Shown here in pieces: positions 55,701 through 58,700 of a stretch of 64,000 bases of DNA (position 1 is its first letter; each line of letters begins with the position of its first letter). A program made the position numbers. This stretch comes from Escherichia coli O127:H6 str. E2348/69. Lineage in GTDB: Bacteria; Pseudomonadota; Gammaproteobacteria; Enterobacterales; Enterobacteriaceae. The DNA is taken from NCBI RefSeq assembly GCF_000026545.1, contig NC_011601.1; one strand, 5' to 3'.

Positions 55701-58700
55701 CAGTCACATACTCATTTTTTGCATCGGGTGGATGGTTATCGGCGGCCTATATTGCTGAGCCGTAGTGAGCACAATATTCTGTTTGATTTTGCACGTTCAC
55801 GCCGCGCTCTGGCGCAATTTAATCCACATGTTTTGTATCTTTCTTATCCATTTGGCGGATTTAATGACAAAGCCGTGAAGGCAGCAAAAGAAGCCGGATT
55901 TCACCTGGCGGTGACGACCATGAAAGGCAAAGTAAAACCGGGGGATAATCCGTTGTTACTAAAACGACTTTATATCTTAAGAACGGATTCGCTGGAGACG
56001 ATGTCGCGGCTGGTGAGTAACCAGCCGCAGGGATAACAATCAGGCAACCTGTACCGGAATCGCTTTCGCGGTACGTTTCATTTCGTTGTCGCCTTCAAAA
56101 TAGGCGACGTTGGGTCGCCAGGTGCGAGCTTCTTCATCTGGCATGGTAACGAAGCTGGCGATGATGACAATATCGCCGACGCTGGCGCAGTGGGCCGCCG
56201 CACCGTTAACAGAAATAATTCTCGAACCGCGTTCTGCCGCGATGGCATAGGTGGAGAAACGCTTGCCGTTGGTGACATTCCAGATATCAATGGCTTCGTT
56301 TTCGAGAATACCGGCTGCGTCAAGAAAATCCTGATCAATGGCGCAAGAACCTTCATAGTGCAGGTCCGCATGAGTCACTTTCACGCGGTGGAGTTTGCCC
56401 TGCAGCATCGTGCGAATCATAACTTCTACCTTTCTACCCTGTCGTTAACGAAGCAGGCGATGCCTGCTTTGAGGAAATTCTCACGCAGTATTGCCCGATT
56501 TTTGTTTAGTGTCTACTCATCTGACGGCATTTGCATCAGCAGTTTGCGTACCGTGCCGAAGCGTGCCATGTAACGCCTGTAACCAATTGAAATTTATCTG
56601 AACGCTGCTCGGTAAACACTAAAGAGGCGGCTGACGACGGCACACCTTGACTGGATACTGCCTTCACGCAAGACCACACGGAAGGCAGGGAAGATGGATG
56701 CACCGAGTACCACACCGCATGATGCGGTGTTTAAACAATTTTTAATGCATGCGGAAACGGCTCGCGACTTTCTGGATATCCATTTGCCAGCGGAGCTACG
56801 CGAACTGTGTGACCTCGACACGCTGCATCTTGAGTCGGGGAGTTTTATTGAAGAAAGCCTGAAAGGGCACAGCACTGACGTGCTTTATTCCGTGCAAATG
56901 CAGGGCAACCCCGGTTATTTGCATGTGGTGATTGAACATCAAAGCAAGCCGGATAAGAAAATGGCCTTTCGCATGATGCGTTATTCTATTGCTGCCATGC
57001 ACCGGCATCTGGAGGCTGACCACGATAAGCTGCCGCTGGTGGTGCCAATTCTGTTTTATCAGGGCGAGGCCACACCTTATCCGCTATCAATGTGCTGGTT
57101 TGATATGTTTTACTCACCGGAACTGGCGCGACGCGTCTATAACAGTCCTTTCCCGCTGGTGGATATCACTATCACACCGGATGACGAAATCATGCAACAT
57201 CGGCGGATTGCGATTCTCGAACTGCTGCAAAAACATATTCGCCAGCGCGACTTAATGTTATTGCTGGAGCAACTGGTCACGCTGATTGACGAAGGGTACA
57301 CTAGCGGAAGTCAGTTAGTTGCCATGCAAAACTATATGCTGCAACGCGGTCATACTGAACAAGCGGATTTGTTTTATGGTGTGGTGAGAGACAGGGAAAC
57401 GGGAGGGGAGTCTATGATGACGCTGGCGCAGTGGTTTGAAGAGAAGGGGATTGAAAAAGGAATGGAGAAAGGGATTGAGCGGGGGATTGAGAAAGGAATG
57501 GTGAAAGGAATAGAGATAGGAATTGAGAAGGGGATTCAGCAAGGAAGACAGGAAGTAAGTCAGGAATTCGCCCTGCGTCTTCTGAGTAAAGGAATGTCTC
57601 GGGAAGACGTTGCAGAGATGGCAAATTTACCTCTTGCTGAGATTGATAAAATGATTAACTAAGTTGTCTGCATTATGAATAATTGCCTACAGATAACGTG
57701 GCAATGAATAACTGGCGCCATCAGCCGTAGCGCCAGTTAAGCATTACGCCAGTTCGACCAGTTTGTTGTCGATCAGGCGAGCATCGCCAAGCCAGGCGGC
57801 TACCAGAATCACTGCGCGTTTGCTGTTTTCAGAGACTTCCAGCAATGTGTCGGCATCACGAATCTGAATATCATCGGAACGGAAACCTTTTTCATTCAGT
57901 TCTTGCCCGGCAATAGCAATAATTTCATCGAGATCCCGTTCGCCAGCCTGCAATTTGTCGGCAATCGAACTTAAAACCTTGTACAGACCGGGCGCAATTT
58001 TGCGTTGTTCCGCCGTCAGATAACCGTTACGGGAACTCAGCGCCAGACCGTCTTTCGCACGCATAATCGGTACGCCGACAATCTCAATATCGAAGCCCAT
58101 ATCAGCAACCATTTTGCGGATCAGCGCCAGTTGCTGAAAATCTTTTTCACCGAAGCAAGCGATATCTGGCTGGACCAGGTTGAACAGCTTGCTGACAATA
58201 GTCGAAACGCCGCGAAAATGTCCCGGACGGCTGGCACCTTCCAGCATGGTGGAAAGACCGGGAACATCAACATAGGTGTGGGTTTCAGTACCGTTCGGGT
58301 AGATCTCTTTTACCGAAGGCGCGAAAACTAAATCCACTTTACGTTTGTTCAGCTTTTCGCAGTCCTCTTGCAAGGTCCGTGGATAACGTGCCAGATCTTC
58401 CGGGCGGTCAAACTGCATTGGGTTAACGAAAATACTGACGACGACCACATCGGCGCGGGCTTTGGCTTCGTCGACCAGCTTCATATGGCCGTCGTGCAGG
58501 TTACCCATGGTGGGCACCAGCGCCACGCGCTTACCTTCCATACGCAGGCGGCGAATTTGCTGACGCAGCAGCGGCAGGGTTTCGATAATTAACACAACGT
58601 CACTCCTTAATGGAAACTGTGTTCTTCGCCCGGGTAAACACCGGACTCCACTTCAGCCATATACTGCCGCACAGCCGCGCGGATGTCGCCCGTTTCGGCG

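What the first reader, a model, noticed from the sequence alone, without database searches (positions are those of the whole stretch)
57401..57662. rpnC carries an internal RBS and start codon ahead of a tetrapeptide-repeat C-terminal domain (RpnS-type intragenic antitoxin)
Inside rpnC (56694..57662) there is a near-perfect Shine-Dalgarno GGGAGGGGAG at 57401-57410, followed 3-6 nt later by in-frame ATGATG at 57414-57419. The downstream ~82 codons are the C-terminal domain, which contains degenerate 12-nt (4-aa) repeats GIEKGMEKGIERGIEKGMVKGIEIGIEKGIQQG at about 57441-57545. This matches what has been reported for E. coli Rpn toxic nucleases: a small, hypervariable C-terminal protein is translated separately and antagonises the full-length nuclease, and its repeat number varies between strains. 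From memory K-12 RpnC is about 300 aa, whereas this ORF is 322 aa, so this allele may carry extra repeat units (unverified).
Basis: partly seen in the sequence, partly recalled or inferred. Interest (0 to 1): 0.6.

Follow-up and report, generated by a model that had tools for sequence, protein, structure and literature searches.

The report
Known RpnC antitoxin-within-toxin, long-repeat allele
The rpnC nuclease gene of E. coli E2348/69 has an internal ribosome-binding site and start codon for a small antitoxin (RpnCS) made from its own 3' end; this system was published in 2023, and this strain simply carries a rare long allele with 8 four-amino-acid repeats where K-12 has 2.

Summary

- **Identity.** The window is E. 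coli E2348/69 (100% identity). rpnC (yadD) lies at 56694..57662 between panD and panC and encodes 322 aa.
- **Internal start.** A GGAGG core at 57402-57406 sits 7 nt upstream of an in-frame ATGATG at 57414-57419. An 82-codon ORF follows.
- **Repeats.** Eight 12-nt EKGI-type units occupy 57441-57536.
- **K-12 comparison.** K-12 RpnC is 300 aa. This allele has exactly 24 more residues (6 extra units, 8 versus 2) and lacks K-12's last two residues.
- **Transfer of K-12 evidence.** The 70 nt compared around the internal start are nearly identical to K-12 (one substitution, 37 nt upstream), and the RBS and start are identical. In K-12, Ribo-seq peaks, SPA-tag blots and dinD-lacZ assays showed that RpnCS is made and neutralises only an RpnCL with the same repeat number (Zhong et al. 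2023, PNAS).
- **Population.** Ten alleles I read carry 1 to 9 such units, or a different repeated unit. The exact 8-unit tract is in only 10 of 5,426 complete genomes, and a 9-unit allele is in 7.
- **Chance.** The SD+ATG motif alone is not above chance in this window.

Verdict: already known; low interest.

The parts
56694..57662 (+). rpnC (yadD) full-length CDS = RpnC-L toxin, 322 aa, Rpn family PD-(D/E)XK DNA endonuclease
   Evidence: ORF. 100% identical to rpnC of E2348/69 (WP_000339912.1). TIGR01784 scores 296 bits against a cut-off of 52.
56712..57314 (+). Nuclease (Transposase_31 / YhgA-like, PF04754) domain, residues 7-207. The counterparts of the RpnA residues D11, D63, E82, Q84, R94 and the PDDE motif are all present (RpnC D10, D62, E81, Q83, R93, PDDEI).
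   Evidence: Pfam E=2.5e-87 with model coverage 1-201/203. BLASTP to K-12 RpnA gives 53% identity over 249 aa, with all the residues mutated by Kingston et al. conserved.
57308..57376 (+). 69-nt stretch invariant in 10 diverged rpnC alleles, just upstream of the internal RBS. Candidate 5' leader or internal-promoter region of the short rpnCS transcript (inferred).
   Evidence: Longest invariant run. Only 1 of 40 third-codon positions varies in 57294-57413, against 56 of 209 elsewhere (p=3e-4). A weak promoter-like TGGTCA-17-TACACT lies at 57274-57302. The stricter scan found nothing there. Zhong et al. cite dRNA-seq transcription start sites inside all rpn genes.
57401..57410 (+). Internal Shine-Dalgarno, GGGAGGGGAG (GGAGG core at 57402-57406)
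   Evidence: Identical in 8 of 10 alleles; O157 and CFT073 have GGGAGGGAAG.
57414..57419 (+). In-frame internal start codons ATG ATG (RpnC M241 and M242). M242 aligns with RpnA M244, the validated RpnAS start.
   Evidence: RpnA K240R+E241D+M244L abolishes RpnAS.
57414..57662 (+). rpnCS, the gene-within-gene encoding the 82-aa (or 81-aa) RpnC-S antitoxin. Not annotated in the RefSeq record.
   Evidence: TIGR01784 matches the tail alone at 53.4 bits. The AlphaFold2 model is all-helical with mean pLDDT 81.
57441..57536 (+). Eight in-frame 12-nt units: EKGI EKGM EKGI ERGI EKGM VKGI EIGI EKGI. This is the hypervariable tract. K-12 has 2 units.
   Evidence: Alleles with 1, 2, 4, 5, 6, 7, 8 and 9 units were read.
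57537..57560 (+). Two degenerate relatives of the unit (QQGR, QEVS). Other strains expand this part instead, as (QEVR)n.
   Evidence: B19695 allele.
57561..57659 (+). Conserved C-terminal helix-turn-helix-like end of RpnC-S (QEFALRLLSKGMSREDVAEMANLPLAEIDKMIN)
   Evidence: Invariant and near-invariant columns in alignment A1. Model helices 63-69 and 74-81. The top Foldseek hits are HTH domains, none significant.

Best explanation
This is the chromosomal rpnC locus of E. coli E2348/69. It is a gene-within-gene type II-like toxin-antitoxin and candidate phage-defence module.

The full-length product (RpnC-L, 322 aa) is a PD-(D/E)XK DNA endonuclease that damages DNA and induces the SOS response. 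Ribosomes also initiate at the internal SD/ATG (57402-57419), probably on a shorter and more abundant internal transcript. This yields the 82-aa C-terminal domain on its own (RpnC-S).

RpnC-S is predicted to be a long alpha-helix carrying the 4-aa repeats, followed by a small HTH-like pair of helices. It pairs through that helix with the identical segment of RpnC-L and blocks the nuclease.

Because both proteins are read from the same DNA, any gain or loss of a 12-nt unit changes toxin and antitoxin together. The repeat number then acts as a length code for cognate recognition. This strain carries a rare, long and internally degenerate 8-unit version, where K-12 has 2 units.

Shown here: the sequence anatomy, identity with K-12 at the start site, intact catalytic residues, the allele series, and the helical prediction.

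Shown elsewhere, for K-12 rpnC: internal initiation, the RpnCS protein, and repeat-number-specific neutralisation.

Inferred for this allele: expression, neutralisation, and any defence role.
For: - **Identity and context.** 100% match to rpnC of E2348/69, lying between panD and panC.
- **Domain.** PF04754 E=2.5e-87. TIGR01784 296 bits. All RpnA catalytic-residue counterparts are conserved.
- **Internal start.** GGAGG lies 7 nt before an in-frame ATGATG. The RBS and start are identical to K-12 and B19695; the 70 nt compared with K-12 differ at one base (57384, 37 nt upstream), and B19695 differs at that base too. The 26-nt core is unchanged in 8 of 10 alleles. It aligns within one codon of the validated RpnAS start.
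- **Published evidence.** Ribo-RET and Onc112 peaks plus SPA-tagged RpnCS in K-12, and neutralisation only between RpnCS and RpnCL with equal repeat numbers (PMC10400941). Meydan et al. list the yadD internal start as having synonymous-site conservation (10.1101/520783).
- **Own conservation test.** 1 of 40 third-codon positions is variable upstream of the internal start, against 56 of 209 elsewhere (p=3e-4).
- **Repeats.** Always whole 12-nt units: 1 to 9 EKGI-type units in nine alleles and a (QEVR)n array in the tenth. They begin at residue 10 of RpnC-S, inside the 8-20 range reported for RpnS proteins.
- **Structure.** The AlphaFold2 model has helix 4-27, helix 30-58 and two short helices; the repeat tract is helical.
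Against: - No expression or toxicity data exist for this strain or this allele.
- The SD+ATG motif occurs at chance frequency in the window (7 observed, 9.5 expected).
- No strong sigma-70 promoter was found upstream of the internal start.
- The model places a 2-residue break in the long helix at residues 28-29, with pLDDT 70-75 in the repeats.
- The low diversity near the internal start could partly reflect a mosaic recombination history. The whole 3' third of the gene is less variable.
- Phage defence was shown for the plasmid-borne RpnP2, not for RpnC.
Confidence: 0.9

Rival explanations
1. The SD-like purine run is only a by-product of coding Gly-Gly-Glu-Ser-Met-Met. In this strain the C-terminal domain exists only as part of the full-length protein, and no separate antitoxin is made.
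For: The motif frequency in the window is at chance level. No clear internal promoter was found. Nothing was measured in E2348/69.
Against: The RBS and start are identical to K-12, where internal initiation and the small protein were observed directly. The Gly codons GGA and GGG, which could be GGT or GGC, are kept in all 10 alleles. Third-position variation is depleted upstream. The site matches the validated RpnA internal start in position.
Confidence: 0.04
2. The repeat tract is a neutral, slippage-prone low-complexity linker. Its length has no role in specificity, and the 8-unit allele is functionally equivalent to the 2-unit allele.
For: The units are simple and purine-rich. The higher-order 24- and 36-nt periodicities suggest replication slippage or unequal exchange. 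Several units in this allele have drifted (ERGI, VKGI, EIGI).
Against: Adding one KGIE unit to either K-12 RpnCS or RpnCL alone abolishes neutralisation, and adding it to both restores it (PMC10400941, Fig. 4D). All alleles read differ by whole 12-nt units, keeping frame and 4-residue register. The tract is predicted to be helical, not a disordered linker.
Confidence: 0.05
3. The long, degenerate array marks a decaying or inactive locus: toxin dead, antitoxin irrelevant.
For: The 8-unit allele is rare, found in 10 of 5,426 genomes. The units are degenerate. Neighbouring yad fimbrial genes are pseudogenised in this strain. K-12 RpnC is only weakly toxic.
Against: The reading frame is intact. 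The nuclease domain is covered end to end and every tested catalytic residue is conserved. A closely related 9-unit allele is also intact.
Confidence: 0.05

Closest known systems
E. coli K-12 RpnC-L/RpnC-S (yadD, b0132), Zhong et al. 2023 PNAS (PMC10400941)
   Same: Same locus between panD and panC. The nuclease domain is about 95% identical at the DNA level. The internal RBS and start are identical, as are the TLAQWFE lead-in and the HTH-like end. The EKGI-type repeat unit is the same.
   Different: 8 units instead of 2 (+24 aa). Several units are non-synonymously diverged (ERGI, VKGI, EIGI). The protein ends in ...KMIN rather than ...KVINLI. From the published +1-repeat experiment, this allele is expected to be non-cross-reactive with K-12 RpnC-S (inferred).
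E. coli RpnA-L/RpnA-S (yhgA; crystal structure 7TH0)
   Same: 53% identity over the nuclease domain, with all catalytic residues shared. The SD+ATG sits at the homologous codon: RpnA M244 aligns with RpnC M242. The toxin/antitoxin logic is the same.
   Different: The C-terminal tails are not detectably similar by sequence or profile. The K-12 RpnA tail has no EKGI array.
rpnC alleles with a free-standing downstream rpnCSs gene (e.g. B19695, WP4-S18, E300010, CFT073 remnant)
   Same: Same locus, same internal start, and the same hypervariable tract.
   Different: Those strains carry a second, separately encoded RpnC-S-like gene (71-81 aa) between rpnC and panC. Some expand (QEVR)n instead of (EKGI)n. 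The window has only 81 nt between rpnC and panC and no second copy.
EcoR124I / EcoR124II HsdS TAEL repeats (cited by Zhong et al.)
   Same: The number of a 4-aa helical repeat sets a molecular length and thereby a specificity.
   Different: There the length sets the DNA-target spacer in a restriction enzyme. Here it sets protein-protein (toxin-antitoxin) matching. The proteins are not homologous.
FliH/YscL GxxxG helical repeats
   Same: A Gly every fourth residue in a variable-length helical segment. There are weak NCBIfam hits of the repeat tract to FliH models.
   Different: Scores are 21-35 bits against cut-offs of 180-293. This is compositional resemblance only, with no shared domain or function.

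Membership tests
Rpn (RpnL/RpnS) gene-within-gene toxin-antitoxin | N-terminal YhgA-like/Transposase_31 PD-(D/E)XK nuclease domain with catalytic D, E, Q and the PDDE motif | tested here: met
   PF04754 E=2.5e-87 over residues 7-207. TIGR01784 scores 296 bits against a cut-off of 52. D10, D62, E81, Q83, R93 and PDDEI align with RpnA D11, D63, E82, Q84, R94 and D165.
Rpn (RpnL/RpnS) gene-within-gene toxin-antitoxin | In-frame internal RBS and start codon at the boundary between the nuclease domain and the variable tail | tested here: met
   GGAGG at 57402-57406 and ATG at 57414/57417. Identical to K-12. Positionally homologous to the RpnAS start M244. This is a sequence-level test only.
Rpn (RpnL/RpnS) gene-within-gene toxin-antitoxin | The small protein is actually translated from the internal start | not testable with these tools
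   Shown for K-12 rpnC by Ribo-seq and SPA tagging. Not measured for E2348/69.
Rpn (RpnL/RpnS) gene-within-gene toxin-antitoxin | Separate internal transcription start giving a more abundant short mRNA | tested here: inconclusive
   The standard scan found no promoter there. Only an 8/12 match was found, at 57274-57302. A 69-nt invariant run and depleted synonymous variation upstream are compatible with a promoter or leader.
Rpn (RpnL/RpnS) gene-within-gene toxin-antitoxin | 4-aa repeats starting 8-20 residues after the initiating Met, with number varying between strains of one species | tested here: met
   Repeats start at residue 10 of RpnC-S. Alleles with 1, 2, 4, 5, 6, 7, 8 and 9 units were read. 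Locus spans vary widely in a 60-genome systematic sample.
Rpn (RpnL/RpnS) gene-within-gene toxin-antitoxin | RpnS fold: long first helix carrying the repeats plus two short helices (a three-helix bundle, as in 7TH0) | tested here: inconclusive
Rpn (RpnL/RpnS) gene-within-gene toxin-antitoxin | RpnS binds and neutralises the cognate RpnL nuclease; RpnL alone is toxic and induces SOS | not testable with these tools
   Published for K-12 RpnC, RpnA and RpnB.
Anti-phage defence system | Protects against phage infection | not testable with these tools
   Shown only for plasmid-borne RpnP2. PADLOC v2 has no Rpn model; only weak hits to the HTH tail were found.
Simple-sequence contingency (phase-variable on/off) locus | Repeat-unit changes shift the reading frame or promoter spacing to switch expression on and off | tested here: not met
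   The unit is 12 nt. All alleles read stay in frame and full length. This is length variation, not on/off switching.
FliH (flagellar assembly protein) | Score above the NCBIfam equivalog cut-off | tested here: not met
   21-35 bits against cut-offs of 180-293, confined to the repeat tract.

The most novel reading that the evidence does not exclude
Natural rpnC alleles may form a series of mutually non-cross-neutralising specificity classes: at least eight EKGI lengths (1-9 units seen), plus (QEVR)n variants and free-standing rpnCSs copies.

On this reading, the rare, old-looking 8-unit and 9-unit E2348/69-type arrays are an orthogonal lock-and-key pair, grown by 36-nt block duplication. The invariant 69 nt at 57308-57376 would be the internal promoter or leader that sets the antitoxin:toxin ratio.

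If so, repeat length would work as an allelic incompatibility code at the panD-panC locus, rather than only as an arms-race trace.
Probability: 0.3. Interest if true: 0.4.

Novelty: already known. Interest (0 to 1): 0.15.

Why it matters
This adds no new biology. It confirms that the published RpnL/RpnS gene-within-gene toxin-antitoxin architecture is present, unannotated, in the EPEC reference strain E2348/69.

It places this strain near the long end of the known repeat-length polymorphism: 8 units, where most genomes have a K-12-like 2-unit allele.

Practical value:
- RefSeq annotates only the long ORF, so rpnCS is missed.
- The 8-unit and 9-unit alleles are natural reagents for testing the repeat-number specificity rule, which has so far been shown only with an engineered +1 repeat.

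Tried and rejected
1. **Chance test of the SD+ATG motif.** 7 observed against 9.5 expected. The motif alone carries no statistical weight.
2. **Promoter scan.** Nothing inside rpnC at the standard threshold. Only an 8/12 match with relaxed rules.
3. **Structural link to RpnAS (7TH0).**
   - phmmer and a profile search against PDB gave only designed repeat proteins and HTH proteins.
   - Foldseek gave no hit with E below 1.
4. **Search for phage-borne RpnC-S mimics (possible anti-defence decoys).** No tblastn match in 50,697 phage records. The 'plasmid' hits are mislabelled chromosomal replicons carrying ordinary rpnC.
5. **PADLOC.** No Rpn model; only weak hits to the HTH tail.
6. **Protein search with the 82-aa tail.** It returned mostly fragments. 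These were useful for the alignment but not for an allele census.
7. **Supplementary files of Zhong et al.** Not held, so the exact K-12 start codon (M241 or M242) and their repeat tables could not be read.
8. **Phase-variation (on/off) reading.** Rejected, because units are 12 nt and all alleles stay in frame.
9. **FliH relationship.** Rejected as low-complexity resemblance.
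Full report
**1. What is in the sequence.**

The window is E. coli E2348/69. The 969-nt ORF matches NZ_CP059840.2 at 100% identity, where it is annotated rpnC, 'Rpn family recombination-promoting nuclease/putative transposase'. It lies between panD (56040..56420, minus strand) and panC (57744..58595, minus strand).

- The ORF runs 56694..57662 and encodes 322 aa.
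- GGGAGGGGAG occupies 57401-57410.
- In-frame ATG ATG occupies 57414-57419.
- The GGAGG core (57402-57406) is 7 nt from the first ATG. A second GGAG (57407-57410) is 6 nt from the second ATG.
- From 57414 the frame gives 82 codons.
- Tandem Repeats Finder reports period-12, -24 and -36 arrays at 57440-57546.
- In codon register there are eight units at 57441-57536: EKGI EKGM EKGI ERGI EKGM VKGI EIGI EKGI. Two degenerate units, QQGR and QEVS, follow.

**2. Is it more than chance?**

Not on the motif alone. GGAGG followed 4-9 nt later by ATG occurs 7 times on the two strands of the window, against 9.5 +/- 2.9 in first-order Markov simulations.

- Three of these sites are annotated gene starts (ddlB, yadI, speE).
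- Two share one SD and are out of frame inside the fimbrial usher gene.
- One is antisense to nadC.

The case rests on context.

- The site is in frame and sits exactly at the end of the conserved nuclease domain. Pfam PF04754 covers residues 7-207 with E=2.5e-87.
- The 26-nt core GGGAAACGGGAGGGGAGTCTATGATG is unchanged in 8 of 10 diverged alleles. The other two have a single G-to-A change.
- Among those 10 alleles, only 1 of 40 third-codon positions varies in 57294-57413, against 56 of 209 in the rest of the first 747 nt (Fisher p=3e-4).
- The longest invariant run of the gene (69 nt, 57308-57376) lies just upstream of the RBS.
- Caveat: the alleles are not independent, and the whole 3' third of the gene is less variable. 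Recombination history may contribute.

**3. Comparison with K-12 and other strains.**

K-12 rpnC (b0132) is 903 nt, or 300 aa. The alignment shows exactly one 24-residue insertion in the window allele. K-12 has two extra C-terminal residues, so 322 = 300 + 24 - 2.

K-12 therefore has 2 EKGI-type units and this allele has 8. The RBS and start are identical. The 70 nt compared around them differ from K-12 at one base, 57384, which is 37 nt upstream of the first ATG.

Alleles read from other complete genomes carry different unit counts:

| Strain | EKGI-type units |
|---|---|
| 729_270514 | 1 |
| K-12, O157:H7 | 2 |
| Res13 | 4 |
| WP4-S18 | 5 |
| CFT073 | 6 |
| E300010 | 7 |
| E2348/69 (this window) | 8 |
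| ChlosBP-23-1 | 9 |

B19695 instead expands a (QEVR)n array in the same tract. All differences are whole 12-nt units.

In a systematic sample of 60 of 5,440 matching records, 32 have the K-12-like span and 4 have the 1-unit span. Others carry an extra small gene between rpnC and panC.

The exact 221-nt tract of the window is present in 10 of 5,426 genomes. Several of these are E2348/69 or O127:H6 assemblies, and 2 more match at 99%. The 9-unit relative is in 7 genomes. No longer span was seen among the 60 best rows.

The 8-unit allele is therefore rare and near the long end of the distribution. Its units are more diverged than the near-perfect CFT073 array, which suggests an older array (inference).

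**4. What it is and how it works.**

The full-length protein is an Rpn-family PD-(D/E)XK endonuclease.

- TIGR01784 scores 296 bits against a cut-off of 52.
- It is 53% identical to K-12 RpnA over 249 aa.
- Every residue that Kingston et al. 2017 showed to matter in RpnA (D11, D63, E82, Q84, R94, PDDE) is conserved.

RpnA M244 is the start of RpnAS. It was validated by the K240R+E241D+M244L mutant that abolishes RpnAS. It aligns with RpnC M242, which is the ATG at 57417. RpnA has AAGGAG 6 nt upstream of its own ATG.

Zhong et al. 2023 (PMC10400941) report the following for K-12 rpnC:

- Onc112 and retapamulin initiation signal at the internal site.
- An SPA-tagged RpnCS protein.
- An internal transcription start for a more abundant short mRNA.
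- RpnCS blocking RpnCL-dependent dinD-lacZ induction only when both carry the same number of 4-aa repeats. An inserted KGIE in one partner abolishes protection, and inserting it in both restores protection.

Meydan et al. (10.1101/520783) independently list the yadD internal start as conserved at synonymous sites.

My AlphaFold2 model of the 82-aa product used a 37-sequence alignment and has mean pLDDT 81. It is all helical, with helices at 4-27, 30-58, 63-69 and 74-81. The repeat tract is helical apart from a two-residue break. This fits the published view that repeats lengthen the first helix.

The best-supported mechanism is as follows. The toxin and antitoxin share the repeat-bearing helix. 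They associate through it. The repeat number acts as a length code that co-varies automatically, because both proteins are read from the same DNA.

Expression, neutralisation and any defence role in E2348/69 are inferred, not shown.

**5. Tests that were negative or inconclusive.**

- **Promoter.** No strong sigma-70 promoter was found inside rpnC. There is only a weak TGGTCA-17-TACACT match at 57274-57302.
- **Decoys.** No RpnC-S-like gene exists in 50,697 phage records. The plasmid-collection hits are chromosome-sized replicons carrying ordinary rpnC.
- **PADLOC.** It has no Rpn model.
- **Supplement.** The supplement of Zhong et al. is not held. I could not check which of the two ATGs they assign, nor their repeat tables.

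**6. Comparison with the known, and novelty.**

This is the same system as K-12 RpnC-L/RpnC-S. It differs only in allele:

- 8 rather than 2 repeat units.
- Some drifted units.
- A slightly different C-terminus.
- No downstream rpnCSs copy.

Zhong et al. already state that RpnC has the highest repeat numbers among E. coli strains and that the number varies widely.

The finding is therefore a correct recognition of published biology. The only additions are the allele count for this strain, its rarity, and the note that RefSeq does not annotate the internal gene.

Interest is low (0.15) and the novelty class is 'already known'. The most novel reading not excluded is that the natural length series forms many orthogonal toxin-antitoxin specificity classes, with the invariant 69 nt serving as the internal promoter or leader. 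I give that about 0.3 probability and moderate interest if true.

Noticed in passing
window 57294-57413 (invariant run 57308-57376): Synonymous variation among 10 rpnC alleles is strongly depleted in the 120 nt upstream of the internal start: 1 of 40 third positions, against 56 of 209 elsewhere (p=3e-4). A weak promoter-like TGGTCA-17-TACACT lies at 57274-57302. This may be the internal promoter or leader of the rpnCS transcript, or it may reflect mosaic ancestry.
   Followed up: partly
L003 2514-2729, L006 1216-1461, L007 1240-1473, L010 1138-1305 (other E. coli strains); absent at window 57663-57743: Many strains carry a free-standing second RpnC-S-like gene (rpnCSs, 71-81 aa, with its own AAGGGA RBS) between rpnC and panC. 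It has its own (FQKG)/(QEVR) repeat polymorphism. CFT073 has only a remnant, annotated as a partial 'transposase'. E2348/69 has none.
   Followed up: partly
L003 1501-2445 (strain B19695) versus window 57441-57560: In some alleles the unit that expands is QEVR (7-8 copies) rather than EKGI. Two adjacent, different 12-nt units in the same tract can therefore each amplify.
   Followed up: partly
window 57441-57560 (RpnC residues 250-289): The repeat tract gives sub-threshold hits to FliH models (21-35 bits against cut-offs of 180-293). It is a Gly-every-fourth-residue (GxxxG-like) helix, as in the variable FliH/YscL repeats. This is a compositional resemblance only.
   Followed up: partly
window about 59513-60780, 61453-62060, 62072-62638 (minus strand): The yad fimbrial operon downstream of panB is decayed in E2348/69. 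RefSeq marks the adhesin and yadL as frameshifted, and another fimbrial subunit as having an internal stop.
   Followed up: no
window 56694-57173 versus 57174-57440: Variable sites among the 10 alleles are concentrated in the 5' two-thirds of rpnC: 59 in 480 nt, against 12 in 267 nt. Between K-12 and the window, 24 of 35 differences fall before 56994. This suggests a mosaic or recombinant gene history.
   Followed up: no
window 15341-15430 (+), 21076-21145 (+), 21549-21624 (+), 32900-33013 (-): Rfam gathering-score matches to PssrA, STnc40, naRNA4 (a REP-derived nucleoid-associated RNA) and tp2. These are ordinary E. coli small-RNA or REP features unrelated to rpnC.
   Followed up: no
window 28066-28080 (+) and 62857-62875 (-): Two other GGAGG-spacer-ATG sites are not gene starts. 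One is antisense to nadC and one is out of frame inside the fimbrial usher gene. They illustrate that the motif alone is not diagnostic.
   Followed up: yes
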